Made by a program: the position numbers and the translations under genes. From Rubritalea profundi (GTDB taxonomy: Bacteria > Verrucomicrobiota > Verrucomicrobiia > Verrucomicrobiales > Akkermansiaceae): 64,000 bases of DNA. Shown piece after piece: positions 10,483 through 33,488 of the stretch (the stretch's first letter is position 1; each line of letters starts with the position of its first letter). The notes under the pieces were generated by a model. The model made no database searches. It had not been told where the DNA came from and saw nothing but the letters and a program-made list of their open reading frames with translations. Location of the stretch: the NCBI RefSeq assembly GCF_002954445.1, contig NZ_MQWA01000001.1, positions 1,988,733-2,052,732 of the forward strand, in the 5' to 3' direction.

Positions 10483-11145
10483 ATGAGTATTTACTTGTCA
10501 GTGCGAATCCCCCAACCCCCAACCCCCCCCCAACGCATGCAATATTTTTACGATTTATCCTTACTTGACGTCCGCGGAGAGATCTCCACAGCAATCACTG
10601 TGTTGTATTACGGAAATGAGATTGGAGCATTTTCTGGACCGGATATAAAGACGGTCGATTTGAGTAGGGTCTACGCTGTGGAGATTGATCTCACAGCATA
10701 CGCTAACAATGACAATGGCGTACATAGTTATTCTATTATGTTCTTTGAGAGAAAATGGGACGAAGAGGTCTGGAATCAGAAACTACTTCAGAAAAAGCAC
10801 AACTTAAGATCAGTCACGACCCGAGTGAGCCTTACGGCTGACATGACTGATAACCCTAAGCATGAACATCACATTTTTACTGCATCAAATAGGTATATCG
10901 ACTTTTCGGTATATCCAGAAATAGCCACTTCTCATGTTGTCCCTGTAGAGTATATTGAGCAATTCAATCAGCGATTTGTTGGCTATTTAATGCGGAGTGA
11001 GCGGGTATTTGATGATGTCCATGAAATGATTGGGAAGTACCAACTAGTTGACCTGGTCAGTCAGGATTATGAGCAAGTCAATGACTTGCACGAGAATGTC
11101 AAGGTGCATGCCTACGGAATGTTGAAAAAAAACGCAATAGCTTAA
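10483..11145 (+). CDS. Hypothetical protein (orphan). The start codon is uncertain and is more likely the M at about nt 10537 (MQYFYDL).
   Basis: 220-aa ORF in the low-GC islet with no recognisable family. A C9 homopolymer sits immediately 5' of the internal ATG. Confidence 0.45.
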   Translation: MSIYLSVRIPQPPTPPQRMQYFYDLSLLDVRGEISTAITVLYYGNEIGAFSGPDIKTVDLSRVYAVEIDLTAYANNDNGVHSYSIMFFERKWDEEVWNQKLLQKKHNLRSVTTRVSLTADMTDNPKHEHHIFTASNRYIDFSVYPEIATSHVVPVEYIEQFNQRFVGYLMRSERVFDDVHEMIGKYQLVDLVSQDYEQVNDLHENVKVHAYGMLKKNAIA

Positions 11146-11318: not shown

Positions 11319-11978
11319 GTGAGGACAAGTCTCGACATCGTGGGGAATCTGACGCATGAATGGTTCTCGGGAGTTAGTCCCGAACGCGCCATGTCAGACA
11401 GTCAGCAATACATTTACCCCGTTTTTGAGCAACAGAAAGCAGACCTTCTGCTTCACCTCCTAGAGAAAAATAGCGATTGGGAGCAGGTGCTGGTATTCCT
11501 CCGCACTCGGGAAAGTGTGCATGGACTTGCGAGTGAACTCAACAAGGAGGGAATTCATACAGAGTCGCTGCACGGCAAGCAAAAGCAAGAGGTGAAGGAT
11601 CGCTCACTTGCTAGTTTCAAAGATGGGAAGTGCAGAGTTCTCGTAGTGACGGATGCTGTCGCTAGAGCTATCGACTGGACTGGTACGCCTGTAGTGATCA
11701 ACTATGATTACCCAGAGCTTGAGGAAGACTATCTCACTAGGCTCGATACAGTTTCCGTAATGTATACTTTACTCACGCCTCAAAACAAGAACTCCCTAGA
11801 GCAACTAGAGGCTAAGTTAGAGACATCCATAGATGCGTTAGTCGCTGAGGGATTTGAGTACGACACTATTGAGCTGAAGGAACGTGTGAAGCGTAATAAG
11901 ACGCCGAAGAAGGGACCTCGCTCCAAGCCGCTTCAGCACAAAAAGAAGAAGTGGAAGCCGAAGAAGTACACGCGCTAA
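11319..11978 (+). CDS. DEAD-box helicase C-terminal-domain-only protein with a lysine-rich tail (probable truncated, inactive remnant)
   Basis: Residues 30-130 align with the DEAD-box helicase_C domain (VLVFLRTRESVHGLASELNKEGIHTESLHGKQKQEVKDRSLASFKDGKCRVLVVTDAVARAIDWTGTPVVINYDYP). The whole DEAD/Walker N-domain is absent. Motif VI (HRIGRTGRAG) is deleted and replaced by EDYLTRLD. The C-terminus is KKGPRSKPLQHKKKKWKPKKYTR. Confidence 0.5.
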   Translation: MRTSLDIVGNLTHEWFSGVSPERAMSDSQQYIYPVFEQQKADLLLHLLEKNSDWEQVLVFLRTRESVHGLASELNKEGIHTESLHGKQKQEVKDRSLASFKDGKCRVLVVTDAVARAIDWTGTPVVINYDYPELEEDYLTRLDTVSVMYTLLTPQNKNSLEQLEAKLETSIDALVAEGFEYDTIELKERVKRNKTPKKGPRSKPLQHKKKKWKPKKYTR

Positions 11979-12056
11979 GGTGTGCTATTTTTTTAGCACA
12001 TCAGTAGTTTTTTCTTGAGTTTGTTGTGCTGCTGTCGATGCTGTGAGTCGCAGATC

Positions 12057-13142
12057 ATGGAGAGTAAAAAGAAGGTAGTAATAGCATGCGGAGGGACAGG
12101 AGGGCATCTCTTTCCTGGAGTGGCAGTGGCGCAAGAAATGAAGCGCCGCGGGCACACCGTGCGGTTGCTTATTTCTGAGAAAAAAGTAGATGCTCAAGCA
12201 TCTGCAAAATACGGTGATCTAGAATTTGATACGGTTCCAGCAATTGCTAAACCAGCAACGCTCTCGCTCAAGATGCTTCCTTTTCTGTGGAAGTTGCTGA
12301 AGACGACGGCTAAGTGTAAGGGATTGCTGAGGAAGTTTGAAGCGGATGCTGTGATCGGCATGGGTGGGTTCACCTCACTACCACCCGTGATGGCTGGCAA
12401 AAAGTTAGGAGCGAAGACCTTTGTTCACGACTCCAATGCCTTGCCTGGTAAAGCAAACCGACTCACCGCAAAATGGTGTGATAAGGTGTTGTTAGGGGTA
12501 GAGGAAGCTCGCCCCTATTTTCCTGAATCTGCAATCGAGATCACAGGCACGCCTGTGCGTGAGGAATTATACAGCCTTCCTGCACGTGAAGCAGCCGCTG
12601 AGAAGCTTGGCCTGGATCCCACTTTAAAGACTGTGTTAGTGATGGGTGGTAGTCAGGGAGCTAAACAACTAAACAGCCTAGTAGTGCAAGCCTCAAAGGC
12701 GATGCCAGATATTCAGTTCATCCACATCACGGGTAATTTTGATCACGATCGAGTCAAAGCTGAGATGGGGGAGCATTGCCCGAACCACAAGCTTATCGCT
12801 TTTTGCGATGACATGCCGAGCATTTACGCTGTCACAGATTTGGCAATAATGCGATCTGGAGCTTCGAGCTTGAGCGAAATTTCCTACTTAGGTTTAGCCT
12901 CGATTTTGGTGCCGTATCCGTACGCCGCGGGTGACCACCAGACGAAAAATGCCGAAGTCTTTGCTGCCGCCAATGCGGCGGTGCTCAGGCAGGAGTCAGA
13001 CTTGGATGCCGGGATGTTAGTGGCAGATGTCACTCACATATTCGCGAAGTCAGAAAATTTAGAAAAAATGAGTGCTGCGTCAGCGGCACTTGGAGTGAAA
13101 GACGCGGCGACTCGTGTCTGTACTGTGATTGAGAGTTTGTAA
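12057..13142 (+). CDS. murG: Undecaprenyl-PP-MurNAc-pentapeptide GlcNAc transferase MurG
   Basis: The G-loop VVIACGGTGGHLFPGVAVAQEM and a C-terminal UDP-GlcNAc-binding region are present. The start was chosen at the internal ATG 12057 (MESKKKVV); the ORF track opens at 12015. Confidence 0.9.
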   Translation: MESKKKVVIACGGTGGHLFPGVAVAQEMKRRGHTVRLLISEKKVDAQASAKYGDLEFDTVPAIAKPATLSLKMLPFLWKLLKTTAKCKGLLRKFEADAVIGMGGFTSLPPVMAGKKLGAKTFVHDSNALPGKANRLTAKWCDKVLLGVEEARPYFPESAIEITGTPVREELYSLPAREAAAEKLGLDPTLKTVLVMGGSQGAKQLNSLVVQASKAMPDIQFIHITGNFDHDRVKAEMGEHCPNHKLIAFCDDMPSIYAVTDLAIMRSGASSLSEISYLGLASILVPYPYAAGDHQTKNAEVFAAANAAVLRQESDLDAGMLVADVTHIFAKSENLEKMSAASAALGVKDAATRVCTVIESL

Positions 13143-15439
13143 TGAAGGATTTTAGTGAGAGATTGATGCAGCCGGACGTTCCAATGCGCGTTCACCTTAT
13201 TGGTGTTGCGGGTTCAGGTATGAGCGGCCTAGCTTCTCTTCTGTTAGGCATGGGCCATAATGTGAGCGGCTGTGATCGCGTCACCAGCGCGGAGACCGAG
13301 CGTCTACAGCGCGCTGGATTAGCATTTTCGAGCCCGCACAATGCACACTCTGTCGCTGATGCTGATGTAGTGGTGTATTCCTCTGCGATTCGTGATGAGA
13401 ATGTGGCTTTGGCCGCAGCGCGCGAGTCCGGCATCCCGACGGTTCGCCGCGCCGAATGCCTCGCTGCCATTTTGGCGACCAAGGACGGAATCGTCATTTC
13501 AGGGACGCATGGAAAGACCACAACGTCTGCAATGAGTGCGCATGTGTTACGCCGTGGTGCGGTGCATCCATCTCATTATGTGGGAGCTGAAATCCCAGTT
13601 TTAGGAGCCAATGCGCACTGGGACGAACGAGGTGAGCTAATGGTAGCTGAAGGAGATGAGAGCGATGGTACGCTGGCGCTCTATCAGCCAAAGCACGCCG
13701 TGGTTCTCAATGTGGAAGAAGAGCACCTCGATTTCTATAGTGGGATTAATCACATCAAGCAGGTCTTCACTACCTTGTTAGACCGAACTTCAGGATGCGT
13801 GATTTATTGCGGTGAATGTCCCGTTGCTACAGAGCTCTGCGGATCCCGAGAAAATTCGATTTCCTATGGCTGGAGCGATGCCGACTACGTGGCAGAAAAC
13901 ATTAAAGAACAGGGAGGAACTATCGCATTTGATGTGATTCACCAAGGTGAAAATCTTGGACGTGTTGAGCTAGGTGTTCCTGGCCGGCACAATGCACTCA
14001 ATGCTCTAGCATCGATAGCTCTGGCTGCTGTCTGTGGGGTTTCATTTAACGACGCCTCACGGGCGCTGGCTACTTTTGCCGGTGCTCGCCGTAGATTTGA
14101 AACAAAGTATCTCAGCTCGCGCTTGAGAGTAATCGATGACTACGGTCACCACCCCACTGAACTCGCGGCGACATTGCAGACAGCTCGTTCGCTCAATCCC
14201 AAACGGATAGTTGTTCTATTTCAACCACACCGCTTCAGCCGCACTCAGAAGTTGGCGGATGATTTCGGTAGAGTCCTGCAGGCTGCCGATCGGGTCTTCG
14301 TGACTGACGTTTACCCGGCATCTGAATTACCGATTGATGGAGTCAGTGGTCAAACTATTGTCGACGCCATGAAGGCGCATGGAAATATACAGGCTGAGGT
14401 TGTGGGATCGGTCCAGCAAGCACACTACGCTGTGGGCAATGCTCTAAAAGAAGGGGATATGCTGATCACTCTAGGTGCCGGAAATGTGCACGAAGCTGGC
14501 ACCAAAATCTCGCGTGATCAGGTGGTCTTAGAGGACATTCTCGGCGAGTGTGGCGAAGGGAACGCTAAAGTCCATTTGTACGAGCTGATGCGTAAGCACA
14601 CCACGATGTTGGTCGGTGGTCCTGCCCAATTTTGGGTAGAACCTTTGACGCATAACTGTTTTGCGAGAGTTGTAAGGTATTGCCGTGAGCGTGGGATTCC
14701 AGTTCGAGTTCTCGGACGTGGATCTAACTTGTTAGTCCGTGATGGCGGTATCCGAGGCGTAGTCATTCATCCATCGAAAGGTGTCTTTGGTGAGGTTGTA
14801 GTCGAAGGTGATACTATTATTGCTGGAGCTGGTGTGCGTTTTAAAAAGCTCGCGAGTGTGGCTCAGAAGGCTGGTCTGACTGGCTTTGAGTGGATGGAAG
14901 GAATCCCAGGGAATGTCGGTGGCGGACTTCGCATGAATGCTGGAGCAATGGGGACTGAGACCTTTGATCAAGTAGTGGAGGTGACATTCCTCGACGAAGA
15001 TGGTGAGATTCGGACCCGTAACCGTGACGAGATCAAAGCATTTTATCGGAATGTGCCCGAGCTTCGTCGTAGCTTTGCCTTGAGTGCGCGCTTCATAGGC
15101 TCGGCCTCTAACCATGGAACCATCCAGCAAAAGATGGAAACCTCGATGGGGAAGCGTCGTAGTTCGCAGCCGCTTGCCGCCAGTGCTGGATGTATTTTCA
15201 AGAATCCTGAGCTGATGCCGGCTGGTATGTTAGTCGACACATTGGGCTTCAAGGACTCGAGCGTTGGCAAGGCGAGGGTCTCGCTCGAACATGGGAACTT
15301 TATTGTGAATGATGGAAAGGCATCCGCGCAGGATGTGCTCGGCCTGATTGACCAAATCCGCACAAAGGCGAAACAAGAGAAGAGCGTTGAGCTGGAGACA
15401 GAAGTGCAAATCATCGGTGAAGATACTTTCCTTTTTTAA
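13142..15439 (+). CDS. murC: Bifunctional UDP-N-acetylmuramate--L-alanine ligase (MurC) / UDP-N-acetylenolpyruvoylglucosamine reductase (MurB) fusion
   Basis: 765 aa. The N-terminal ~460 aa is MurC (HLIGVAGSGMSGLA, ISGTHGKTTTSAM, DDYGHHPTE). The C-terminal ~300 aa is MurB (FAD-binding LVGGPAQFWVEP..., GIPGNVGGGLRMNAGAMGTE, KNPE). The start overlaps the murG stop by 1 nt. Confidence 0.85.
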   Translation: MKDFSERLMQPDVPMRVHLIGVAGSGMSGLASLLLGMGHNVSGCDRVTSAETERLQRAGLAFSSPHNAHSVADADVVVYSSAIRDENVALAAARESGIPTVRRAECLAAILATKDGIVISGTHGKTTTSAMSAHVLRRGAVHPSHYVGAEIPVLGANAHWDERGELMVAEGDESDGTLALYQPKHAVVLNVEEEHLDFYSGINHIKQVFTTLLDRTSGCVIYCGECPVATELCGSRENSISYGWSDADYVAENIKEQGGTIAFDVIHQGENLGRVELGVPGRHNALNALASIALAAVCGVSFNDASRALATFAGARRRFETKYLSSRLRVIDDYGHHPTELAATLQTARSLNPKRIVVLFQPHRFSRTQKLADDFGRVLQAADRVFVTDVYPASELPIDGVSGQTIVDAMKAHGNIQAEVVGSVQQAHYAVGNALKEGDMLITLGAGNVHEAGTKISRDQVVLEDILGECGEGNAKVHLYELMRKHTTMLVGGPAQFWVEPLTHNCFARVVRYCRERGIPVRVLGRGSNLLVRDGGIRGVVIHPSKGVFGEVVVEGDTIIAGAGVRFKKLASVAQKAGLTGFEWMEGIPGNVGGGLRMNAGAMGTETFDQVVEVTFLDEDGEIRTRNRDEIKAFYRNVPELRRSFALSARFIGSASNHGTIQQKMETSMGKRRSSQPLAASAGCIFKNPELMPAGMLVDTLGFKDSSVGKARVSLEHGNFIVNDGKASAQDVLGLIDQIRTKAKQEKSVELETEVQIIGEDTFLF

Positions 15440-15450
15440 TATTTAGAACA

Positions 15451-16374
15451 ATGAACAAAGAGATCAAAATAGCAGTAGCCATGGGTGGTCCAGGCTCTGA
15501 ACGCGATGTTTCTATGGCAACAGGAAAGGCTGTGCTTCAAGCCTTGATTGACGAAGGCTGTGATGCGGTGGCTCTTGAAATCAGCACCCATGAAATCGTG
15601 GTGCCCTCGGGCGTGGGACTTGTTTTCAACACGATTCATGGAACCTTCGGTGAGGATGGAACATTGCAAAGCCAACTCGAAAAGCAAGGAGTTGCCTACA
15701 CGGGTGCCGGCTCTGCTTCTAGTTTGTTAGCTTTTGATAAGGTGGCGAGTAAGCATCGTTTCATTGAAAAGAACGTGCCAACGCCGACCTCCGAAACTGT
15801 CGATTGCAGTGCTGGTGTGCAAATGCCTAAAATGCCATTACCTTACGTAGTGAAACCCCCTCGTGAGGGATCCAGCGTTGGAGTACACATCGTTCAGAAG
15901 GAGGCGGATGCTCGCGCTGCGATCGAAGATGCGGCTAAGTATGGTGACGAGGTGCTGGTCGAACAATTTGTCGAGGGCAAGGAACTCACTGTGGGTGTGC
16001 TAGAGGATGAGGTTTTCCCTATTGTGCATATTGCTCCACGCAGTGGATTCTATGATATGTCTAACAAGTATCCGTGGATGACTGGTGAAGGTGGGACTGA
16101 TTATTATTGTCCCGCTGAGCTGGATGCTGAAACTACGCAAAAGGTAAAAGGTGCAGCTTTAGCGGCGCATCGCGCTTTGGGAGTTGAAGTCTACTCCCGA
16201 GTTGATGTACTATTGGACGCCGATGGGAATCCTTATGTGTTAGAAGCTAACACTATACCGGGAATGACTGCGAGTAGTCTGCTGCCAAAAGCAGCGAAAG
16301 AGGCTGGCTATTCGTTCGGTAAACTTTGTTTAAAGATCGCAGAAATTTCGCTGCAGACCCCAAGAAATGTTTAG
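15451..16374 (+). CDS. ddl: D-alanine--D-alanine ligase
   Basis: 307 aa. Contains IAVAMGGPGSERDVSMATG, an ATP-grasp region (YVVKPPREGSSVGVHIV) and the C-terminal YLLEANTIPGMT. Confidence 0.9.
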   Translation: MNKEIKIAVAMGGPGSERDVSMATGKAVLQALIDEGCDAVALEISTHEIVVPSGVGLVFNTIHGTFGEDGTLQSQLEKQGVAYTGAGSASSLLAFDKVASKHRFIEKNVPTPTSETVDCSAGVQMPKMPLPYVVKPPREGSSVGVHIVQKEADARAAIEDAAKYGDEVLVEQFVEGKELTVGVLEDEVFPIVHIAPRSGFYDMSNKYPWMTGEGGTDYYCPAELDAETTQKVKGAALAAHRALGVEVYSRVDVLLDADGNPYVLEANTIPGMTASSLLPKAAKEAGYSFGKLCLKIAEISLQTPRNV

Positions 16375-17293
16375 AAAGAAACAGACGAATACGCGCTACG
16401 TGCGCCAACGCTCTGACCGCATGCTTCACTTGCAGGTCAGCTCTCCGCGTATCGTTTTCTTTCAATCACGCAAGGCTGTTTGGGGTGTCTTTAAGATCGT
16501 TATTGTTCTAGCTGCGCTGGGTGCTGCGGGCATCTATGGAACTCGCTATGTGCAGAACCATTTTCTCACTAGCCCAGAGTTCGCCCTCCGCCACCTAGAA
16601 CTCAAGACGAATGGCTTTCTTAACGAAAGTGAAGTCGCCCAAATTGCGCAAATCGATCCAAATGGAACTATTTTTTCTTTTGATATTGATCTTGCCGAAG
16701 CTCGGCTGATTGCTCGGCCAGAAGTCGTGACTGCCGTTGTAGAGCGCCGCCTCCCCGACACCGTGAAAATAACGCTCACCGAGCGTGTGCCTGTCGCATG
16801 GATTGCCTGCCCGAAACTCGGTATGGCTGGGAGGAATCCGCTCTCTGGAATGTTGATGGATGCGGATGGTGTGATCTTTACCTGCCAAGGTAGTCTTTGG
16901 GATGTGGCACGGAATTTACCAGTCATTGATATTGGTGTGGCTGAAGCACACGAATTTCCACTAGGAGAAAAGATGACGAATAAGAATGCCGCCCGAGCAT
17001 TGTCTCTGATCACCCTTGTTGATGATGTGGTCAAAGGTGAGTGGACGGTGAAGCGAGTGGCAGTAGCAAATTTTTATAAGTTGGTCATCACTAGCAATGA
17101 CGGTGTAGAGGCGACTTTTGGAATGTATGAGCATCGGCGTCAGCTCAATGATCTCATCGCGGCGCGCAATCACGCCAAAGAAACTGGTAGGGAATTAGAG
17201 TGGATCAACCTCTTGCCCAAACATAATATTCCAGGAAATTTTAAAGAACCCTCAGCTCAGGCGAATGATGGGTTAACAAGTGTGAACGACTAA
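16367..17293 (+). CDS. ftsQ: Cell division protein FtsQ (POTRA domain)
   Basis: 308 aa. A single N-terminal TM helix (IVIVLAALGAAGIYG) followed by POTRA-like and FtsQ-type domains. Position between ddl and ftsA as in dcw clusters. Confidence 0.75.
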   Translation: MFRKKQTNTRYVRQRSDRMLHLQVSSPRIVFFQSRKAVWGVFKIVIVLAALGAAGIYGTRYVQNHFLTSPEFALRHLELKTNGFLNESEVAQIAQIDPNGTIFSFDIDLAEARLIARPEVVTAVVERRLPDTVKITLTERVPVAWIACPKLGMAGRNPLSGMLMDADGVIFTCQGSLWDVARNLPVIDIGVAEAHEFPLGEKMTNKNAARALSLITLVDDVVKGEWTVKRVAVANFYKLVITSNDGVEATFGMYEHRRQLNDLIAARNHAKETGRELEWINLLPKHNIPGNFKEPSAQANDGLTSVND

Positions 17294-17312
17294 TCGAGTG
17301 GTAGGTACCTAG

Positions 17313-18521
17313 ATGGCTAAATCAAAGATATACGTGGGCCTAGAGATAGGCACCAGCAAGACATGCATGGTGGTGGGGGAAGTGAAGGCTGATAGTTCAG
17401 TCAAGATTCTTGGGGTGGGTGAAACGAAGTCTGTTGGCGTCCGTAAGGGGGAAATTGCCGATATCGCGAACGTCCGCACCTGTGTGCGCGAAGCTTTGTT
17501 AGAAGCTGAAGATGTGTGCGATGTCGATATCCGCAGTGTCTTTCTGTCGGTCACCGGCTCTCACATTTCAGGTGTGAATAATCGCGGAACCTTCCGACTT
17601 CCTGATGATGATCAAGAAATCACTACTGAGCACGTCGAGGAGTCCAAGGAGATCGCCAGAGATATCGCAATCCCATCAGATAACGTCTACCTCCACAACA
17701 TAGTACGCCAATACTGGATCGACGGCAACGAGCAGGCGAGCAACCCAGTTGGCTTGTTAGGTCGCACGCTGGAAGCTGATTTCCATATTGTACACGGGGT
17801 CAAGACTAGGATTCAAAACAGCATCAAGTGTACCCGTGAAATTCCTCTCGATGTCGATGATATCGTTTTCGCTCCTATTGCCTCAGCACAGATAGCACTA
17901 AATCGTCAGGATAAAGAAGCGGGAGCTTTGGTGATCGATATTGGCGGCGGCACGACGGATTACGTGCTTTACTTGGATGGTGCAGTGGCGGCCTCTGGTT
18001 GTATCCCAGTGGGTGGTGATCATGTCACCAATGACATTCACTTGGTGACTCAGATGCCACTTTCCAAAGCTGAAAAGGTAAAATGCACCGAAGGCGACGC
18101 CTCTGGTGACCCCGCCCGCTCGGTAGGCACAGTCACTATCCCAGACGATAAAGGTTTCCCAGAATTAGAGATCAAGCGGCAGTTACTCAACGACATCATC
18201 CGTGGTCGGCTCGAAGAGACTCTGCAGTTGGTGAGGCAAAAACTTCCCGATGGTGCTCTAGAAAAAGTGGGAACTGGAGTGTTCCTTACTGGCGGATCTA
18301 GCTTGATGCGCGGTTTTGGTGAGCTCGCAAATGATGTTTTCCATCTGCCTATCTACCGCCCAGAGCAACCAGAAGTGAGTGGTATCCATGAGTACTTCCG
18401 CGATCCACAATATTCCACAGTGGTAGGACTCATACGCTACGCTCAACTGATGGACGAAGATAGCCCGAAGGAGAAATCAGGAGTTTTCGGTAAATTAGCC
18501 AAAGCCGTCTGGCCATTTTAG
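17313..18521 (+). CDS. ftsA: Cell division protein FtsA
   Basis: 402 aa. Actin-fold motifs YVGLEIGTSKTCMVVGE and LVIDIGGGTTDYVLY, plus a C-terminal amphipathic tail. Confidence 0.9.
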   Translation: MAKSKIYVGLEIGTSKTCMVVGEVKADSSVKILGVGETKSVGVRKGEIADIANVRTCVREALLEAEDVCDVDIRSVFLSVTGSHISGVNNRGTFRLPDDDQEITTEHVEESKEIARDIAIPSDNVYLHNIVRQYWIDGNEQASNPVGLLGRTLEADFHIVHGVKTRIQNSIKCTREIPLDVDDIVFAPIASAQIALNRQDKEAGALVIDIGGGTTDYVLYLDGAVAASGCIPVGGDHVTNDIHLVTQMPLSKAEKVKCTEGDASGDPARSVGTVTIPDDKGFPELEIKRQLLNDIIRGRLEETLQLVRQKLPDGALEKVGTGVFLTGGSSLMRGFGELANDVFHLPIYRPEQPEVSGIHEYFRDPQYSTVVGLIRYAQLMDEDSPKEKSGVFGKLAKAVWPF

Positions 18522-18789
18522 ATAGTTGTTTTTTGCAACCACACTATTACTTAGTGCTAAGCTCGATAGTGGCCACCACTGTTCGAGCCACTTTTTCCCA
18601 ACTAACATTGGAAACATCCGATACAGCAGAATTGCGCATCTGAGTGTTGCGCACATGATCTAGAGCTTCGATGGAGCGATCCAAGAAACACTGATGATCA
18701 CCAAAAGGGTAAGCGGTCAGTACGAGGCCCTCTCTAAACTCTTTCTCGCTGCACCGTTCTAGGCGTAGGTGTGATAAGTATGACACTTA

Positions 18790-19300
18790 CCACCCTTATC
18801 GATAAAAACACCTCACTCACTCCGATCAAAACTGACGATGCTGGGAGATTGCGGCTCAGCGCCGATCACAAAATAGCTTTGCTCGATTCCTCTCCGGATC
18901 TTGCGAGCTTTCTGCAGCCCGCTGATAGCTCACAGATGAGACCTAGCGACACCTAGGAGTTCACACTGCCTTCTCATGCTAATGTTAAAATTATCAGTTT
19001 CAGTCAACCCGATACGATCCCTCACAGGCCGAGTTGTTTGGGCTTTTTCGTAGGAAATCAATCTCGACATCCTGTTGTCCAACCTTAGCGTGGAGCTGCT
19101 CTCGCTGAGTTGCAAACGCGTCTTCAGTAGATTTCTTTTTGCCTGATTAAAACACGTTGGCAGCTCCTTCGAGCATCTTCTTTTTCCAGTGGGAGACTTG
19201 CACAGGGTGGACTTCAAATTCCTTCGCGATATCCTGAATCGTTTTGATTCCTTTGATGGCTTTTAGAGCGACCCGAGTCTTAAATTCGGGATCCACCTCA
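18790..19300 (-). mobile_element. Degraded IS3-family transposase remnant (OrfA-like HTH fragment, frameshifted, truncated before the OrfB catalytic core)
   Basis: Minus-strand translation gives ...EVDPEFKTRVALKAIKGIKTIQDIAKEFEVHPVQVSHWKKKMLEGAANVF*. It continues in another frame as ...EDAFATQREQLHAKVGQQDVEIDFLRKS... (IS3/IS911 OrfA HTH plus leucine-zipper pattern). The start of OrfB, ...RRQCELLGVARSHL, follows. There is no Met start, several frame breaks and no DDE core. Confidence 0.55.
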
Positions 19301-19744
19301 GAGGTTCTCAACCATCTGAGTATGCAGCTTCACTGCCTCATTTGTTTAATGCTACTCCTGAGCATTTTTTGATGCTGCAAGTTTATCGTGAATCCCTTGA
19401 GCAACCTCCTCGATATTCTCATTCGGTTTCTTTTGTAACTTTATGTGTATAGGCCTGAAAGTTGGGTTTCAGGCTCGCTGGAAGTGGTGCTTTTGGGCTT
19501 TTAAGCTGAAAACATTGGACTGAGGTGGATATGAGTTACAAGGGTAGAGTTAGCCAAATATTGAGAGCTAATTCTTTCTGAGAAGGAGAGTGTAAGTGAT
19601 CTACACTCTGTTACTTAAGTTATATTTCTGGTGATAATTTTTCTAAAATGTATAATTAAGTGAGTTTGGCGTTGCAATTAAGCGAATTATGGAGATTGTC
19701 CGACCTCCCTCCAACTCAAATCACTTTCTCAAAATCAATATCTT

Positions 19745-21580
19745 ATGACGACTGACAAGATCCGAAATATTGCAATCATTGCACACGTTGACCACGGCAA
19801 GACTACGCTAGTGGATAAATTACTTGAAGCTGGCGGCGCCTACGCCGAACACCAGCAGGTCACTGAACGTGCTATGGATTCCATGGATCTTGAAAAAGAA
19901 AAAGGAATCACCATCAAGTCTAAGAACACTTCCATTCACTGGAACGACCACACAATCAACATCATCGATACTCCAGGACACGCCGATTTCGGTGGTGAAG
20001 TAGAGCGCGTGATGAAAATGGTAGACGGAGTTTTCCTCGTGGTTGATGCCTATGAAGGCCCACAGGCTCAGACTCGTTTCGTTCTTAAGAAGGCCCTCGC
20101 TGAAGGCCTTTCGCCAATCGTTGTTGTCAACAAAGTTGACCGCGACTTCGCTCGTCCATCAGAAGTACGCGACATGGTTCTCGAGCTTTTCCTCGACCTC
20201 GAAGCAACTGAAGAGCAGTTCGAAGCTCCTTTCTTCTATGGTTCCGCTAAAAACGGTTTCTTCGTGGGCAACCTCGAAGAAGACGAGCACAAGGACATGA
20301 CTCCATTGCTCCAAGGCATCATCGACAGCGTTCCTGCTCCAATAGCAAATGCTGAAGAGCCATTCCGCATGCTCGTTTCCAACATCGACTGGGACAACTA
20401 CGTTGGCCGTGTTGCTCTCGGTAAAGTGAATTCAGGTACAGCTAAAAAAGGTGACAATATCTGGCTCCTCCGCAAGGACGGCACTAAGCAGCGTAGCAAG
20501 ATCACCCGCGTATTCGAATACGGTGCAAATGCATCTGAAGAATCTGCAGTCGCTTCCGCTGGTAACATCGTTGGTATTTCTGGATTCGAAGACATCGACA
20601 TCGGTGAGACACTTGCTCTCACAGAAAATACTGAGCCACTTCCATTCATCGACATCGATCCACCGACAATCACGATGCAGTTCAGCATCAACAACGGACC
20701 ATTCAACGGCCGTGACGGCAAGCACGTCACATCCCGCGCTATCCGTGAGCGTCTTGACCGTGAGATCAAAACAAACATCTCTATCGAAGTTTCAGACGCT
20801 GAACACGCAGGTGTGTTCAACGTAGCCGCTCGTGGTGCAATGCAGATCGCAGTTCTCGTAGAGACAATGCGCCGTGAAGGTTTCGAACTTCTCGTTTCCC
20901 GCCCTAGTGTTATCACTAAGCGCGTCGACGATAAGCTGATGGAGCCATTCGAGACACTCTACGTAGAATGTCCAGACGATGCACTCGGTGGCGTGATGAA
21001 GTCACTCGCAACTCGTAAGGGTCGCGTCGAGAACATGGGTACGAATGCTCACGGAGCAACACTCGAAGCAACGATCTCCACTCGTGGAATCATCGGTTTC
21101 GAATTCGAACTTCTCAACCTTTCAAGCGGTCACGGCATCATGTCCCACCTCTTCAAGGAGTACGCACCACACTGTGGTGAGATCGTCACTCGTAAGACTG
21201 GAGCGCTCATCTCTATGGCGACAGGTACAGCGATGAACTACTCACTGATTCCAATCACTGAGCGTGGCAAGCTCTTCATCGAAGCTGGTGAAGAAGTCTA
21301 CGAAGGTCAGATCATCGGTGAGAACCCACGCCTCGTGGATCTCTCAGTCAACCCTGTTAAGGAAAAGGCACTCACTAACCACCGTTCGGCTGGTAAGGAC
21401 AACACAGTGACTCTTCCACCACCACTCGCAATGGGTCTCGAGCGTGCTATCGAATACATCAATGCTGACGAACTCGTAGAAGCGACTCCGAACTTCCTCC
21501 GTATCCGTAAGCGCGTACTCTGCCCGAACGAGCGTAAGCGCTCTGAGCGTCAGTCAAAGAGCGTTGAGGCTAACGTGTAA
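19745..21580 (+). CDS. typA: Translational GTPase TypA/BipA
   Basis: 611 aa. G-domain motifs [19 protein letters not shown] and [14 protein letters not shown], and an EF-G-like domain layout with the BipA C-terminal domain. Confidence 0.9.
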
Positions 21581-21612
21581 ACGACTTTAGATTTCAAATC
21601 TAAGAATTTCAA

Positions 21613-21650
21613 AAGGCGGTTCCTATTGGGAATCGCCTTTTTTGTTGTTT
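21613..21650 (+). terminator. Rho-independent terminator of typA
   Basis: aaggcggttcc-tattgg-gaatcgcctt hairpin (11-bp stem, one G.U) followed by ttttttgttgtttt. Confidence 0.6.
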
Positions 21651-21822
21651 TGTGTGGGATTGGAACGCCTCTACAAAGCTTTTTTCGTGTTGCCAATTTC
21701 CTAGTGCGTTGCACTGGGCTACGGTAGGGCACCCCTTTGGGGCTGAGAAAAGGATAGCTAGGGCCTATAAAATATAGGAGTAGTGAGATCTGTAACGATC
21801 TCTATAATGCCATCGTCATAGT

Positions 21823-22440
21823 TTACCCTTCCTGCCTTGCCATGAGGATGTACTCATCATTATCAGTGGCATTTTGGAAGAAGGTGCAGAGGCCATCATG
21901 AATTTGCCAGAGTGGGGCGCTGATGAGTTCCTGCTGGGTCCATTCTTTATGGGGACGGACTGCGTCTGCGTTGAGAGATTCTAGCTGGGCCTTTCCTTGG
22001 AGGACTTCCACTGGCAGAGAGGTGAGCGAGTCGTTGATTGCGTCAATCTGCGACGGGAAGAGCACGCGGATGGGGCCGTGGTCGTTGTGAATGCTGGTCG
22101 CTCTGCCGGCTTTGGAAAGCTGGGCTAGTGGTGAATGATCTTCAGAGCTTTGTTGGACAATGTGTTCGAGAAGGTCGATTTGATCTTCGATCGAGTAAAC
22201 TTGTCCTTGGCCATTCCAGCGGCCTTCTAAAGTTTGAAACAGAACTTCCGGATTGGCTGCTGCAGCATTGCCAGCAAGTTGTTGAACGAGCTGTCCGTCA
22301 AACCCCAGGTCGTTGACGAGACTGAGTACGAGTTCTTCATCATCGATGAGTGCGTCTAAGTCATCGGTTGCAACGCGAGTGAAGGTGGTGATCATGAATG
22401 GGAAAGGATTAAGAATGTAGAGTGGAGAAGCAAGTACCAA
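21823..22440 (-). CDS. Hypothetical protein (acidic, no recognisable domain)
   Basis: 205-aa ORF, divergent from the 22485 gene. Start possibly at the internal M (MITTFTRV). Confidence 0.4.
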   Translation of the reverse strand: MVLASPLYILNPFPFMITTFTRVATDDLDALIDDEELVLSLVNDLGFDGQLVQQLAGNAAAANPEVLFQTLEGRWNGQGQVYSIEDQIDLLEHIVQQSSEDHSPLAQLSKAGRATSIHNDHGPIRVLFPSQIDAINDSLTSLPVEVLQGKAQLESLNADAVRPHKEWTQQELISAPLWQIHDGLCTFFQNATDNDEYILMARQEG

Positions 22441-22484: not shown

Positions 22485-23516
22485 ATGATTTCACGTAGAA
22501 AGCAGCAATACCCTGTAGGCAATTCCTTGCACCAATATCTTTACCACTTTGGGCGTCATTCCAATATCCCTCAGGTTTATGATGATCTTTTACGTTTTGT
22601 TGGCGCGATGCCATACGAAGATCCCACTGGTCATGAGACGCTTTGGCTCACTGTGATGTATCCTCCAGAGGAACAAAAGAAGCTGAGTGAAGATCTTATA
22701 AGCATTTACACTGCTTTGAAAATTGGTAGTGACACTCCTCTGCACGAGCACCTCACGGTTGACCGCATCGACTTCGGAGAGTTTGGTAATTCACGTCCTT
22801 TTAGGATCAAAATTACGAACCAGTTCAACGATAACTCAGACTACTTTTACGTGAAAATTGCTGATTCTTCAAGGATTTTTGGCCTAGAACTGGAGCACAT
22901 CCTCTCGCCCAATAGGATAAACTATTTGGTGAATGGGAATACGCTGATTGAGGATCACATCGCTGGAGTTCCCGGAGATGCTTTCCTCCGCGATTACCTC
23001 GATAATCCGGAACTTAACAAGGTGCGTATCGCGAAGGAATTTACCAAGTTCAACGAACGGTGTTTCATTCGTCTGTTAGGTGATATGCGCTCGGTCAACT
23101 ATGTTGTGGATATCACTCCTGATTTCGAGGAAGTGCAGTACAGGGTGAGGCCGATTGATTTCGATCAGCAGTCCTACGAGGGACAAGGGCGTATCTACCT
23201 TTCCTATAATTTCCGATCTAACCGTAAGATTACGAAATTGAGTTTTGATTCGCTCAACCGGCAAACGATCAGCCAGTACGCGGAGGAAGAGCGCTCGCAG
23301 ATGGCTCGCCGTGCGGCTTCTGAGCGCCGCCGGCTCTCGGCCATTTTGAAGATCATGAAGCGTTCTGAGATTTGCCCAGATGTACATGTTGATACACTAG
23401 GGCGGGAGTTAGACATCATGCATAAAATAGACAAATTTAAACATATAACGACGATGGGGGAGATGACTGCAGAGCACATCTGTCACGTGTTGAATATGCC
23501 CGACCTCAAATACTAA
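22485..23516 (+). CDS. Hypothetical protein
   Basis: 343-aa ORF with coding-like composition and no motif I can assign. Confidence 0.5.
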   Translation: MISRRKQQYPVGNSLHQYLYHFGRHSNIPQVYDDLLRFVGAMPYEDPTGHETLWLTVMYPPEEQKKLSEDLISIYTALKIGSDTPLHEHLTVDRIDFGEFGNSRPFRIKITNQFNDNSDYFYVKIADSSRIFGLELEHILSPNRINYLVNGNTLIEDHIAGVPGDAFLRDYLDNPELNKVRIAKEFTKFNERCFIRLLGDMRSVNYVVDITPDFEEVQYRVRPIDFDQQSYEGQGRIYLSYNFRSNRKITKLSFDSLNRQTISQYAEEERSQMARRAASERRRLSAILKIMKRSEICPDVHVDTLGRELDIMHKIDKFKHITTMGEMTAEHICHVLNMPDLKY

Positions 23517-24223: not shown

Positions 24224-24817
24224 ATGGTAAAACCAATAATACTCGGAACTGTCGGCGTTGGAATGGCATTTCTTGTGAACTACGTCTACGAGTCTTCGTC
24301 TGACGATGACATTTTCTTCCGTCTATCCGTCACTGTTCTCGCGGGGCTCTATGCAGGCTTGTTGTTCCTTATTTTTGTGCTCCCAGCTATCTCTGATGGG
24401 ATAGCTCGGTTGATGTTTAGTGATCCGGGTGGAGTGGCTGAGAACGATGATCCTATGCGTGAGGCTAGGGCCTTACAAGCTCAAGGCGACTATGTGGGCG
24501 CAGTCGAGTCCTTGCGTCAGGTGGTGACTGAGGATTCCCACAACCGCTTGGCGTGGGCTGAAATGGCTAAAATTCAGATAGTTCAGTTAGATGACGCCGA
24601 AGGGGCATTGGCTATGTTAGTGGAGGCCTTAGATGGACGGGAATGGGAAGTGGATGATGCGGCCTTTTTCATGTTTCGTATTTCTGAGGTGCAATTGGAG
24701 AATATGGACAACCGGGATGCCGCAGTGCAGATTCTTCAACAAGTGTGTACAACTTTCCCAGAGACGCGTCATTCTGCCAACGCCACTCATCAATTGAGAG
24801 AGCTGGGAGTGCTCTAG
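24224..24817 (+). CDS. Membrane protein with a TPR-like helical repeat region
   Basis: 197 aa. Two predicted TM helices, then an A/L-rich helical region (ARALQAQGDYVGAVESLRQVV...). Confidence 0.45.
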   Translation: MVKPIILGTVGVGMAFLVNYVYESSSDDDIFFRLSVTVLAGLYAGLLFLIFVLPAISDGIARLMFSDPGGVAENDDPMREARALQAQGDYVGAVESLRQVVTEDSHNRLAWAEMAKIQIVQLDDAEGALAMLVEALDGREWEVDDAAFFMFRISEVQLENMDNRDAAVQILQQVCTTFPETRHSANATHQLRELGVL

Positions 24818-24818
24818 G

Positions 24819-26999: not shown

Positions 27000-27155
27000 T
27001 AGACTACGATCAACCGACAGATTTTGCATTGGACATTGCGTGATGAAATGCGAGTTTCACCGCCGTAACCCAACCCACTAGTCGTTATTTTTACAAAGAA
27101 TTTTAGTCTACTCCTAGCCTTACGCTACCTCAACCCGCTGCGGACACACGTATCC

Positions 27156-28748
27156 GTGATCACATTGATCTCATTGGTTGGAGTGGCACTAGGGGTGATG
27201 GTTTTGTTGGTCGTGATGTCAGTGATGTCTGGCTTTGAGAATATGGTGAAAGAGCGAGTATTAGGAGAGGCTCCACATATCACTGTGATGCGGAGTCAGC
27301 GATGGGATATGCCCAATCAGGATGGTGATGTTGTTTCAGCGGAAGAACAATGGCGCACTTTAGAGGCTAAGATTGAGCAATTACCCAGTGTGGTGAGCGC
27401 TTACCCGTTGGTGCGTGATTTTGTGATCGTAGACATTTATGGGAGTGTGATTCCAGTGATCATGCGGGGGCTCGACACTGAAGATCCTGAGACCATGGCG
27501 GATCTTAAAAAATTAGAGGAAGATGGGGATGTCTCTATCGGAATGGAATTTGTTGCTGACCGAGACTCTCTAGGTGGAACCAGTGAAGTGGCGGTTATTT
27601 CTTCTATTTTCGCAGAAGAACACGGAATTTCAGTCGGTGATGTTTTGGAGGTGATTTCAAATCGAAATATCAAACAGCTCAAACCCCTGCTGGAGAGAAA
27701 GGGAACGCCTTCGGTTTACGATCAGGACCCAGAGCTTTTCACTGAGATTCGTGAGTGGCTAAAGCCTCGCTGGACTACCGTGGATGGAAAAGAGAAAGTT
27801 CTCTACCAAGACGTGATCGAATTTCGAGATTTCCTCACACAATTAGGAAACAAGAATCTCCGACAAGGCGAACGAGATATTTTTGAAGGAATCAATGAAA
27901 TGACGAAGTCTGAGGATTTTGATGATGACTATAATTATTACCCAACGGGTCGGTTAGTGGAGCTAAATGGAGCTTTTGATGAACTGAAGACGATTGATAT
28001 TGATAGTCTCGACCAGGAAGAAGAGCTGCAGCTGAATGAGCTGGCTTTGCCTAAAGAAATCAGAGTCGCAGGGGTTTACAGGACCGATCGATTTGCACCT
28101 GGCCCACCCTTACTCGTGCCGCTGCATCTCGCGCAAGAACTCGCTGGGGTAGGAACCACAGGAGGAGTAAATGGCGTAGCCCTTCGCCTAAAAGATCCTT
28201 ATCTAGCAGCTTCTGTGCTGGAAGAAGAGTTAGAAGGTGTGGTTCCAGATGGATGGGTTCCTGTCACTTGGATGGAGGAATATAAGCAACAATTTGGGAT
28301 GATAAGCATGCAGAGTTTTATGATGACTTTAGCTTTGTCCTTCATCACTTTGATTGCAGTTTTTTCTATTGGAGCGGTGATGTTCACTGTGACACTGCAG
28401 AAAAAGCGTGAGATTGGTGTAATGAAGGCTCTAGGAGCAACTCCATTTCAAGTGACAAATGTTTTTGCCCTTCAAGGAGTCATCGTGGGGCTCGTGGGTT
28501 CGGTCACGGGAGTGGGCATGAGTCTATTGGTTCTGACTAATTTATCGGTACTCCAAGATATTATGAGGAAATTCGGTTTTGATCCCTTCTCTAAAGCGTT
28601 TTACGGTGGAGATCTACCGTACGAGATCCATTCGAATGAGATGATTTATGTGAGCATTGGCGCCTTTGTGCTGTGCTCGCTCGCGGCCTATGCTCCCGCC
28701 TGGATGGCTTCTCGTGCAGATGCTGCCCGCTCACTTAGAAGTTTCTAA
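27156..28748 (+). CDS. LolC/LolE-like FtsX-family ABC transporter permease (MacB-type periplasmic domain)
   Basis: 530 aa. A TM helix precedes a large periplasmic domain, followed by FtsX C-terminal helices (GVMKALGATPFQV). The conserved N-terminal LolC/E motif (LLLALRYLNPLRTH) is encoded in-frame upstream of the GTG at 27156 but lacks a canonical start codon. Confidence 0.8.
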   Translation: MITLISLVGVALGVMVLLVVMSVMSGFENMVKERVLGEAPHITVMRSQRWDMPNQDGDVVSAEEQWRTLEAKIEQLPSVVSAYPLVRDFVIVDIYGSVIPVIMRGLDTEDPETMADLKKLEEDGDVSIGMEFVADRDSLGGTSEVAVISSIFAEEHGISVGDVLEVISNRNIKQLKPLLERKGTPSVYDQDPELFTEIREWLKPRWTTVDGKEKVLYQDVIEFRDFLTQLGNKNLRQGERDIFEGINEMTKSEDFDDDYNYYPTGRLVELNGAFDELKTIDIDSLDQEEELQLNELALPKEIRVAGVYRTDRFAPGPPLLVPLHLAQELAGVGTTGGVNGVALRLKDPYLAASVLEEELEGVVPDGWVPVTWMEEYKQQFGMISMQSFMMTLALSFITLIAVFSIGAVMFTVTLQKKREIGVMKALGATPFQVTNVFALQGVIVGLVGSVTGVGMSLLVLTNLSVLQDIMRKFGFDPFSKAFYGGDLPYEIHSNEMIYVSIGAFVLCSLAAYAPAWMASRADAARSLRSF

Positions 28749-30935: not shown

Positions 30936-30958
30936 AACAAAAATAAGAACATACTATA

Positions 30959-33043: not shown

Positions 33044-33097
33044 GTAGAGGAAATAGGAGAACCACAGACTACACGGAAAACACAGAAAGCCTGCTAA

Positions 33098-33472: not shown

Positions 33473-33488
33473 ATTTCAAAAGCTTTCC

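What the first reader, a model, noticed from the sequence alone, without database searches (positions are those of the whole stretch)
18540..19340. Degraded IS3-family transposase remnant occupies the position where ftsZ is expected; the dcw cluster is truncated at both ends
The order murG - murC/murB - ddl - ftsQ - ftsA is conserved. Immediately after ftsA, where dcw clusters normally carry ftsZ, there are frameshifted fragments of an IS3-type OrfA (HTH plus leucine-zipper: ...KTRVALKAIKGIKTIQDIAKEFEVHPVQVSHWKKK..., ...REQLHAKVGQQDVEIDFL...) and the first residues of OrfB (...CELLGVARSHL). Next comes an AT-rich region and then typA. Upstream of murG, where ftsW/murD/mraY are expected, there is a low-GC islet instead. 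This suggests past IS-mediated rearrangement of the division/cell-wall cluster. If ftsZ is absent genome-wide, that would be notable for a lineage that keeps ftsQ and ftsA.
Basis: partly seen in the sequence, partly recalled or inferred. Interest (0 to 1): 0.5.

Follow-up and report, generated by a model that had tools for sequence, protein, structure and literature searches.

The report
Decayed IS3 remnant downstream of ftsA
The gap between ftsA and typA in Rubritalea profundi holds a dead insertion-sequence fragment and the stump of a sugar-transferase gene, but ftsZ left this spot long before they arrived, so this is ordinary genome debris.

Summary
The window is Rubritalea profundi, with exact protein matches. 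Its gene order is murG, murC-murB, ddl, ftsQ, ftsA, a 1.2-kb spacer, then typA. On the minus strand the spacer holds 427 bp of an IS3-family transposase gene (18867-19293). That covers OrfA and the first ~55 codons of OrfB, with two stop codons, one frameshift and no catalytic domain. The spacer also holds the last 61 codons of a GT4 glycosyltransferase (18553-18735), a gene that is intact in a close strain.

The causal reading is not supported. All seven other Rubritalea loci show ftsA followed by typA without ftsZ and without the IS; R. tangerina has only 148 bp there. Every locus lacking ftsZ after ftsA falls in one clade (Rubritalea plus Oceaniferula). The sister clade has ftsW-murG…ftsA-ftsZ-typA. 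Two genomes of the ftsZ-unlinked clade carry ftsZ elsewhere.

The IS therefore damaged an accessory gene in a variable spacer, long after ftsZ had left. I estimate about 90% that it lies elsewhere in the genome. Interest is low.

The parts
12015..13142 (+). murG, the first gene of the local dcw block
   Evidence: Pfam Glyco_transf_28 and Glyco_tran_28_C, E = 3.5e-32 and 1.5e-37.
13142..15439 (+). murC-murB fusion gene
   Evidence: Mur_ligase, Mur_ligase_M and Mur_ligase_C plus FAD_binding_4 and MurB_C in one 765-aa ORF. Exact match to an R. profundi protein.
15451..16374 (+). ddl
   Evidence: Dala_Dala_lig_N and Dala_Dala_lig_C.
16367..17293 (+). ftsQ
   Evidence: POTRA_1, E = 1.1e-13. Identical to PQJ28595.1, FtsQ/DivIB of R. 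profundi.
17313..18521 (+). ftsA
   Evidence: FtsA and SHS2_FTSA domains. Identical to PQJ28596.1, FtsA of R. profundi.
18553..18735 (-). Stump of a GT4 glycosyltransferase gene: the last 61 of 384 codons. It lies inside ORF 18547-18786, which GenBank annotates as hypothetical protein BSZ32_08835.
   Evidence: tblastn with the intact L003 gene aligns residues 324-384, 70% identity, E = 6e-23. The L003 gene carries Glycos_transf_1 and Glyco_transf_4 domains. Annotation.
18736..18866 (.). Unassigned junction DNA between the two remnants
   Evidence: No match to GT4, IS3 or any family in any frame.
18867..19025 (-). IS3 OrfB remnant: codons 1 to about 55, with a stop codon at 18930-18932. The catalytic DDE domain is absent.
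   Evidence: 36% identity to OrfB residues 1-55 of the intact element in L114, E = 2e-7. The NF033516 match ends at profile position 124 of 369.
19025..19293 (-). IS3 OrfA remnant (HTH plus coiled-coil region). It has an in-frame stop at 19147-19149 and a one-base loss in the slippery run (A5G at 19043-19048), which puts its last 9 codons in another frame.
   Evidence: 65% identity to L114 OrfA residues 9-91, E = 1.6e-35, and the tail TKKPKQLGL in a shifted frame. L114 has A6G where the window has A5G, and 27 of the next 28 nt are identical. Pfam HTH_Tnp_1.
19294..19589 (.). AT-rich unassigned spacer. It could contain the lost left end of the IS.
   Evidence: No inverted repeats. No Rfam, tRNA or terminator hit. 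No similarity to the other Rubritalea spacers.
19590..19744 (+). Conserved typA upstream element (promoter or leader). Its core is GTTGCAATTAAGCGAATTATGGAGATTGTCC.
   Evidence: Present upstream of typA in all 8 Rubritalea loci. A related block lies between ftsZ and typA in most Roseibacillus-clade loci aligned and in L078.
19745..21580 (+). typA/bipA
   Evidence: GTP_EFTU and BipA_C domains. Identical to PQJ28598.1 of R. profundi.
11319..11978 (+). RhlE-like DEAD-box helicase fragment, C-terminal half only, directly upstream of murG
   Evidence: Matches NCBIfam RhlE profile positions about 209-413 only, and Pfam Helicase_C only. Shared with L004.
10483..11145 (+). Orphan ORF in the low-GC stretch upstream of the dcw block
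   Evidence: No hit in Pfam, NCBIfam or PADLOC. Relatives lie upstream of murG in L007 and L075 (56-58% over nearly the full length) and in L008 (70% over a 60-residue segment).

Best explanation
The 1.2-kb spacer between ftsA and typA of Rubritalea profundi is non-functional debris in a variable intergenic site.

In Rubritalea, ftsA is followed directly by the typA promoter or leader element. ftsZ had already gone from this position in the common ancestor of the Rubritalea plus Oceaniferula clade. The sister clade still has ftsA-ftsZ-typA.

Different Rubritalea lineages later picked up different accessory genes in this spacer. One is a GT4 glycosyltransferase that converges on ftsA. Another is a nucleoside deoxyribosyltransferase-like gene.

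In the R. profundi lineage an IS3-family element inserted on the typA side of the GT4 gene. One deletion of about 1.8 kb then removed the 3' two-thirds of the IS, including all of its DDE transposase domain, and the 5' five-sixths of the GT4 gene. The leftover has since gained two stop codons and a one-base loss in the slippery A-run.

Shown: the identity of both remnants, their decay, their absence from the other Rubritalea species, and the clade-wide absence of ftsZ after ftsA. Inferred: the order of events, a single deletion, and that ftsZ of R. profundi lies elsewhere in the genome.
For: IS3 identity and truncation
- NF033516 matches profile positions 1-124 of 369, E about 1e-13.
- 65% identity to OrfA and 36% to OrfB residues 1-55 of an intact element. 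Nothing matches OrfB residues 56-347.
- The slippery site is degenerate and the downstream 27 of 28 nt are conserved.
- No terminal repeats and no second copy in the window.

GT4 stump
- Residues 324-384 of a 384-aa gene that is intact in L003, whose FtsA is 98% identical.

Not an assembly artefact
- Two metagenome assemblies carry the same spacer at 98.7% identity, and the flanking proteins are identical to those of the isolate genome.

The loss of ftsZ came earlier and is independent
- ftsA followed by typA, without ftsZ, occurs in L004-L008 and L075. Spacers run from 148 bp to about 1 kb and none contains IS3.
- Relaxed tblastn finds no FtsZ remnant in any Rubritalea locus.
- All loci lacking ftsZ after ftsA are monophyletic in neighbour-joining trees built from MurCB, Ddl and FtsA.
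- The sister clade has ftsA-ftsZ-typA. In L027 and L078, ftsZ and typA are 126 and 137 bp apart.
- The typA upstream element is shared between the two clades.

ftsZ lies elsewhere in relatives
- O. spumae NT6N_14770 is on the same chromosome as ftsA, about 1.7 Mb away.
- MAG JALZUH01 has ftsA on contig 192 and ftsZ on contig 51.

FtsA is still constrained
- The FtsA to MurCB divergence ratio is 0.65 in Rubritalea. It is 0.53-0.87 in clades where ftsZ is still linked to ftsA.
Against: - I did not find ftsZ of any Rubritalea species. No Rubritalea-named FtsZ, and no FtsZ on a contig of 4,159,517, 4,443,501 or 3,613,989 bp, appears among about 290 FtsZ proteins listed. None appears among the 150 cluster representatives either; ten of these were checked for names. 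The lists stop at about 75-77% identity, so a somewhat more diverged FtsZ would be missed.
- A published survey found only a 'fragment' of FtsZ, and no FtsW, in R. marina (PMC5147048).
- Both places where relatives keep ftsZ are inside this window and are empty: after ftsA, and about 5 kb upstream of the TPR-ComEC-FtsX block.
- The single-deletion scenario is an inference. The 131 bp between the two remnants is unexplained.
Confidence: 0.85

Rival explanations
1. One reading: the IS3 element inserted at this site and caused the loss or displacement of ftsZ, and by extension the truncation of the dcw cluster, in this genome.
For: The remnant lies between ftsA and typA, exactly where ftsZ lies in Roseibacillus and L078. 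IS elements are known to cause adjacent deletions (general knowledge). A second broken IS3 remnant lies 2 kb downstream of ftsA in L029.
Against: Seven other Rubritalea loci lack ftsZ at the same junction and have no IS3 sequence. R. tangerina has 148 bp there. The absence is shared by a whole clade. The DNA fused to the IS remnant is a GT4 gene stump, not ftsZ. The remnant is confined to the R. profundi lineage, L001 and L002.
Confidence: 0.03
2. ftsZ was deleted outright in the ancestor of Rubritalea, and the genus divides without a canonical FtsZ while keeping FtsQ and FtsA. The IS and GT4 debris is still later and unrelated.
For: ftsZ is cleanly absent between the ftsA stop and the conserved typA upstream element. 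Both syntenic positions for ftsZ are empty in this window. No Rubritalea FtsZ appears in three homologue searches, although the database holds the R. profundi, R. tangerina and R. spongiae proteomes. R. marina was scored as 'fragment only' for FtsZ and as lacking FtsW.
Against: The hit lists are cut at about 75-77% identity. Verrucomicrobial FtsZ diverges fast, at 64-79% identity between clades, so a Rubritalea FtsZ could simply fall below the cut. FtsA shows undiminished constraint. The sister Oceaniferula group relocated ftsZ rather than losing it. A FtsZ fragment does exist in R. marina according to PMC5147048. From general knowledge, the known FtsZ-less lineages (Chlamydiae, most Planctomycetes) also lack FtsA.
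Confidence: 0.09
3. The surviving 54-codon HTH ORF of OrfA (19147-19311) has been domesticated as a small DNA-binding regulator, and is not inert debris.
For: The ORF is open from a TTG start and keeps the HTH_Tnp_1 region. The stretch 19130-19744 differs at only one position between the window and L002.
Against: The low divergence continues about 950 nt into typA. It fits the patchy recombination mosaic seen along the whole 4.7-kb comparison. The ORF exists only in this lineage. It lacks the normal start of OrfA, and no promoter-like site was found.
Confidence: 0.03

Closest known systems
IS3-family insertion sequences (OrfA/OrfB with a programmed -1 frameshift). The closest annotated hits are ISGlo6-like and ISRj2-like elements. 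The closest intact relative found is an unnamed element in metagenome contig L114.
   Same: An OrfA with an N-terminal HTH and a coiled-coil region. OrfB starts in the -1 frame relative to the OrfA tail. The A-run slippery site and the conserved sequence after it lie at the OrfA/OrfB overlap. The remnant matches NF033516.
   Different: Only about 427 bp of an expected 1.3 kb remain. There is no DDE/rve domain and no terminal inverted repeats. It carries two stop codons and an A6G to A5G change. It cannot transpose. Identity to the best intact relative is only 65% in OrfA, so the parent element is not a catalogued IS.
Split dcw clusters of Verrucomicrobiota, for example Verrucomicrobium spinosum (PMC12283558; Pilhofer-type surveys)
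   Same: A murC-murB fusion and a murG-murCB-ddl-ftsQ-ftsA block separated from the mraY/murD/murE part.
   Different: In V. spinosum, and in the Luteolibacter, Prosthecobacter and Roseibacillus loci, ftsZ still follows ftsA. In the Rubritalea plus Oceaniferula clade it does not.
FtsZ-less PVC lineages (Chlamydiota and Planctomycetota)
   Same: A dcw block with no ftsZ next to it, in a member of the PVC group.
   Different: From the literature, those lineages also lack FtsA (PMC5147048, PMC12283558). Here ftsQ and ftsA are intact and constrained, and close relatives keep ftsZ elsewhere. Absence of ftsZ from the Rubritalea genome has not been shown.

Membership tests
IS3 family insertion sequence | OrfA with a helix-turn-helix and a leucine-zipper or coiled-coil region, homologous to IS3 OrfA | tested here: met
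   NF033516 profile positions 1 to about 90. HTH_Tnp_1, E = 6e-5. 65% identity to OrfA of an intact element.
IS3 family insertion sequence | OrfB with a DDE (rve) catalytic domain | tested here: not met
   Only OrfB residues 1-55 remain. No match to profile positions 125-369 in any frame of 18522-18930. This is a remnant of a member, not a functional member.
IS3 family insertion sequence | Programmed -1 frameshift site (A AAA AAG) in the OrfA/OrfB overlap | tested here: inconclusive
   The homologous position has A5G in place of A6G. The OrfA tail and the OrfB start keep the -1 relation, and 27 of the 28 nt downstream are identical to the intact element. The site is recognisable but mutated.
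IS3 family insertion sequence | Terminal inverted repeats and 3-4 bp target duplications | tested here: not met
   No inverted repeats in 18400-19800. The right end has been deleted. The left end was not identified.
Canonical dcw cluster (mraZ … ftsW-murG-murC-murB-ddl-ftsQ-ftsA-ftsZ) | ftsZ immediately downstream of ftsA | tested here: not met
   typA follows ftsA. There is no FtsZ similarity in the window. The same holds in all Rubritalea loci.
Canonical dcw cluster (mraZ … ftsW-murG-murC-murB-ddl-ftsQ-ftsA-ftsZ) | ftsW, murD and mraY upstream of murG | tested here: not met
   No FtsW, MurD or LysM-protein match in the window. The linkage is present only in the Roseibacillus clade and L078.
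FtsZ-less bacteria | No FtsZ or tubulin-family gene anywhere in the genome | not testable with these tools
FtsZ is absent from 74 kb of this scaffold. The other roughly 4.1 Mb was not examined.

The most novel reading that the evidence does not exclude
Rubritalea, including R. profundi, has lost canonical FtsZ and possibly FtsW altogether, yet keeps well-conserved FtsQ and FtsA and a complete peptidoglycan pathway. It would be the first FtsZ-less lineage within Verrucomicrobiota, and an FtsA-containing one. My evidence does not exclude this. ftsZ is cleanly missing from both syntenic positions. No Rubritalea FtsZ surfaced in any search. The only published survey reports just a 'fragment' for R. 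marina.
Probability: 0.09. Interest if true: 0.8.

Novelty: new member of a known kind. Interest (0 to 1): 0.2.

Why it matters
The remnant itself matters little. It is one more dead IS copy, and it shows that the hypothetical protein BSZ32_08835 in the public R. profundi annotation is a glycosyltransferase stump.

The comparative by-product is of modest interest. In one clade of Akkermansiaceae (Rubritalea, Oceaniferula and relatives) the otherwise very stable ftsA-ftsZ linkage is broken. In the Oceaniferula group ftsZ sits in a new, conserved neighbourhood: a hydrolase, a protein of about 910 aa, a 215-aa protein, ftsZ, then a protein of about 250 aa. These neighbours could be candidate division partners.

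If one genome-wide search showed that Rubritalea lacks FtsZ, that would bear on how FtsZ-independent division arose in the PVC group. I rate that as unlikely.

Tried and rejected
- Hidden or diverged ftsZ in the window. tblastn with E. coli FtsZ and six verrucomicrobial FtsZ proteins found nothing. Pfam found no tubulin/FtsZ domain in any of the long ORFs scanned. A profile-profile comparison of the highly conserved orphan orf343 (22485-23516) with FtsZ gave probability 0.2%.
- ftsZ pseudogene remnants in the Rubritalea spacers: none at E <= 1.
- Locating the Rubritalea FtsZ.
  - Three homologue searches, with FtsZ from L011, O. spumae and P0168, listed no Rubritalea entry.
  - Eight contig look-ups of candidate FtsZ proteins all led to other lineages.
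  - Tetranucleotide similarity hinted that L084 might be Rubritalea-like. The FtsA/Ddl tree placed its relatives at the base of the Oceaniferula group instead.
  - A profile search of the cluster representatives, followed by a name look-up for ten of them, gave no Rubritalea name.
  - The next 10 kb of the scaffold, beyond the window's start, holds no ftsZ.
- Functional constraint on the spacer. This was rejected: the low divergence from L002 is part of a recombination mosaic.
- RNA genes, tRNAs, terminators or promoters in the spacer: none found.
- A recent duplicate as the origin of the RhlE fragment. The intact helicase at 42542-43687 is only 36% identical to it.
- Literature. No paper in the library discusses Rubritalea ftsZ beyond the '?' in PMC5147048.

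Full report
WHAT IS THERE

The window comes from Rubritalea profundi. FtsQ, FtsA, TypA, the MurC-MurB fusion, the orphan ORF at 10483, the helicase fragment and the 79-codon ORF in the spacer are all residue-for-residue identical to GenBank proteins PQJ28591-PQJ28600 (locus tags BSZ32_088xx) or RefSeq proteins of R. profundi. Those proteins lie on a 4,159,517-bp contig. The same region also occurs on a 184.6-kb metagenome scaffold and on a second contig from another sample.

- murG, 12015-13142
- murC-murB fusion, 13142-15439
- ddl, 15451-16374
- ftsQ, 16367-17293
- ftsA, 17313-18521
- a 1,223-bp spacer
- typA/bipA, 19745-21580

THE SPACER

On the minus strand, the quoted peptides match the NCBIfam IS3-family transposase model (NF033516) over profile positions 1-124 of 369, with E about 1e-13. 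They also match Pfam HTH_Tnp_1. They match transposase genes on 1,815 plasmid records at 40-45% identity, and the annotated ones are labelled as IS3 family, including the ISGlo6 and ISRj2 types.

A metagenome scan recovered an intact relative, L114. It has a 98-aa OrfA and a 347-aa OrfB with the DDE residues. Aligned to this element:
- OrfA residues 9-91 correspond to window 19293-19045 (65% identity, E = 1.6e-35). There is an in-frame TAA at 19147-19149.
- The last nine OrfA codons (TKKPKQLGL, 19051-19025) are in a different frame.
- OrfB residues 1-55 correspond to 19025-18867 (36% identity) and contain a stop codon.
- OrfB residues 56-347, which include the whole catalytic domain, have no counterpart.

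At the OrfA/OrfB overlap, the intact element has the classical A AAA AAG slippery heptamer. The window has one A fewer (19043-19048), which accounts for the frame change. Of the next 28 nt, 27 are identical between the two. No inverted repeats remain. No second copy is present in the window.

Window 18553-18735 on the minus strand encodes residues 324-384 of a 384-aa GT4 glycosyltransferase (70% identity, E = 6e-23). This gene is intact, and convergent with ftsA, in strain L003, whose FtsA is 98% identical. GenBank annotates the stump as hypothetical protein BSZ32_08835.

The last 155 bp or so before typA form a block conserved in every Rubritalea locus. A related block stands between ftsZ and typA in most of the Roseibacillus-clade loci aligned and in L078. 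This is most likely the typA promoter or leader.

IS THE IS RESPONSIBLE FOR THE MISSING ftsZ? NO.

I fetched 80 Verrucomicrobiales loci around FtsA homologues and mapped the neighbouring genes.

Lineages that keep ftsZ after ftsA. Luteolibacter, Prosthecobacter, Haloferula and Roseibacillus have murG-murCB-ddl-ftsQ-ftsA-ftsZ. Roseibacillus and L078 have the fuller order murD-LysM-ftsW-murG…ftsA-ftsZ-typA. In L027 and L078, ftsZ and typA are only 126 and 137 bp apart.

Rubritalea. Every Rubritalea locus has ftsQ-ftsA-typA with no ftsZ. These are R. tangerina L005, R. spongiae L075 and MAG contigs L004, L006, L007 and L008. The spacers range from 148 bp to about 1 kb, and none contains IS3 sequence. 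L007 and L075 carry a nucleoside-deoxyribosyltransferase-like gene there instead. Relaxed tblastn finds no ftsZ relic in any of them.

Phylogeny. In neighbour-joining trees built from MurCB, Ddl and FtsA, all loci lacking ftsZ after ftsA form one clade. It contains Rubritalea proper, a broader 'Rubritalea-like' group, L010 and the Oceaniferula group. Its sister is the Roseibacillus plus L078 clade. The one other locus without a ftsZ hit, L074, lies among the Luteolibacter-group loci, but its contig ends about 40 bp after ftsA, so it says nothing either way.

The uncoupling of ftsZ from ftsA is therefore old. The IS remnant occurs only in the R. profundi lineage (L001, L002) and is young. What it disrupted, together with a deletion, was the accessory GT4 gene.

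The '5-prime truncation' is also not specific to this genome. ftsW-murG linkage exists only in Roseibacillus and L078 among all the lineages sampled.

The low-GC stretch upstream of murG holds an orphan ORF with relatives upstream of murG in three other Rubritalea loci: 56-58% identity over nearly its full length in L007 and L075, and 70% over a 60-residue segment in L008. It also holds a C-terminal-only RhlE fragment, shared with L004. This junction varies among Rubritalea species.

WHERE IS ftsZ?

In the ftsZ-unlinked clade, ftsZ is demonstrably elsewhere in two genomes:
- Oceaniferula spumae. NT6N_14770 lies about 1.7 Mb from ftsA on the same chromosome.
- MAG JALZUH01. ftsA is on contig 192 (L028) and ftsZ on contig 51 (L111).

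Across the Oceaniferula group, ftsZ sits in a conserved new context: a hydrolase, a protein of about 910 aa, a 215-aa protein, ftsZ, then a protein of about 250 aa. This is often placed divergently next to a TPR-ComEC-FtsX block. Two further stand-alone contexts exist in lineages whose ftsA locus was not seen.

In the R. profundi window the TPR-ComEC-FtsX block lies at 24224-28748. It is preceded by a pseudouridine synthase gene, orf343, a DUF1877 gene, typA and ftsA. So both places where relatives keep ftsZ are inside this window, and both are empty.

I could not find any Rubritalea FtsZ.
- Three homologue searches listed about 290 FtsZ proteins. None is named Rubritalea, and none lies on a contig with the length of the R. 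profundi, R. tangerina or R. spongiae chromosome. The database does hold those proteomes.
- An exhaustive profile search of cluster representatives, followed by a name look-up for ten of them, did not help.
- The lists stop at about 75-77% identity. FtsZ identity between clades in this family is only 64-79%. The negative result is therefore weak.

Rivas-Marin et al. 2016 (PMC5147048) scored R. marina FtsZ as '?'. They found only a fragment and attributed this to incomplete data. Their table shows no FtsZ, FtsW or MurE for that species. Later literature states that Verrucomicrobiota retain ftsZ (PMC12283558).

FtsA in Rubritalea is as constrained relative to MurCB (ratio 0.65) as it is in clades with linked ftsZ (0.53-0.87). 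This argues for a working FtsZ partner.

My estimate is about 90% that ftsZ is encoded elsewhere in R. profundi, and about 9% that the genus lacks it.

MECHANISM AND VERDICT

The feature is inert. A variable intergenic site acquired a GT4 gene. An IS3-family element landed next to it or in it. A deletion of about 1.8 kb then fused the 5' third of the IS to the 3' sixth of the GT4 gene. Point mutations followed. The order of events and the single deletion are inferred.

Comparison with the second assembly shows a patchy recombination mosaic and no sign of constraint on the spacer. There is no RNA family, tRNA, terminator or promoter signal in it.

The identification as IS3 is supported. The proposed causal link to the truncated dcw cluster is not supported. 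The feature is a new but ordinary member of a known kind. The only route to high interest is the small chance that Rubritalea truly lacks FtsZ, and one genome-wide search would settle that.

Noticed in passing
L083 5342-12584; L084 5284-12468; L092 5436-12500; L100 5384-12423; L111: In the Oceaniferula group, the relocated ftsZ always sits in the same new neighbourhood: an alpha/beta-hydrolase, a domain-less protein of about 910 aa, a 215-aa protein with a weak Zn_peptidase_2 hit, ftsZ, then a protein of 240-310 aa. The order holds although the neighbours are only 39-61% identical between lineages. These neighbours could be division-related.
   Followed up: partly
window 22485-23516 (+): orf343 has no Pfam, NCBIfam or PDB sequence match, yet it is 86-96% identical across Rubritalea species, with a nearly invariant core at residues 93-232. 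That makes it about as conserved as TypA. It is not FtsZ-like (hhalign probability 0.2%).
   Followed up: partly
window 19640-19700, and the equivalent upstream of typA in L004-L008, L075, L027, L031, L058, L078: A conserved non-coding block (GTTGCAATTRAGYGRATTATRGRGATTGT in Rubritalea) lies 45-105 nt upstream of typA. A related core (GCG-TTGCAWTT…GGAG.T.TCC) is present in most Roseibacillus-clade loci aligned and in L078. It is probably the typA promoter or leader. There is no Rfam match.
   Followed up: partly
window 11319-11978 (+): An RhlE-like DEAD-box helicase with only its C-terminal half, directly upstream of murG. RefSeq annotates it as 'helicase-related protein'. The fragment is shared with L004, so it is an older truncation.
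   Followed up: partly
window 30264-38639 (+): A possible operon: a 223-aa and a 694-aa protein without Pfam domains, a PD-(D/E)XK_3 nuclease (124 aa) and a 1,716-aa DUF3686/DUF7902/AAA ATPase. PADLOC gives no match to a known defence system beyond weak, sub-domain AAA/nuclease-type hits (E about 1e-3 to 4e-5).
   Followed up: partly
L029 13245-13640: Another broken IS3-family remnant (OrfA residues 1-56 fused to OrfB residues 110-187) lies about 2 kb downstream of ftsA in a different lineage, Rubritalea sp. chromosome OZ253479.1. The region after ftsA seems prone to insertions across the clade.
   Followed up: no
L021 11295-12650; L030 11294-12640: In two lineages near L078, ddl-ftsQ-ftsA is followed on the same strand by an ORF of about 450 aa. 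The L021 ORF has no Pfam hit, and no FtsZ similarity was detected in either locus with E. coli FtsZ. murG and murCB are not upstream.
   Followed up: no
window 17300-21990 compared with L002: Differences between the two R. profundi-type assemblies are strongly clustered: 10-11 per 200 nt next to stretches with 0-2. Divergence then jumps after 21500, where the DUF1877 gene is only 83% identical at the protein level. This is a recombination mosaic.
   Followed up: yes
window 60822-61409 (-): A bactofilin gene (Pfam Bactofilin, E = 4e-28) with a Ser/Ala/Pro-rich N-terminus. It is the only cytoskeletal family other than FtsA seen in the window.
   Followed up: no
L003 and L004 (record titles): Two Rubritalea contigs, with FtsA 97-98% identical to R. 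profundi, are deposited in MAGs labelled Crocinitomicaceae and Thermodesulfobacteriota. This is probably a binning error.
   Followed up: no
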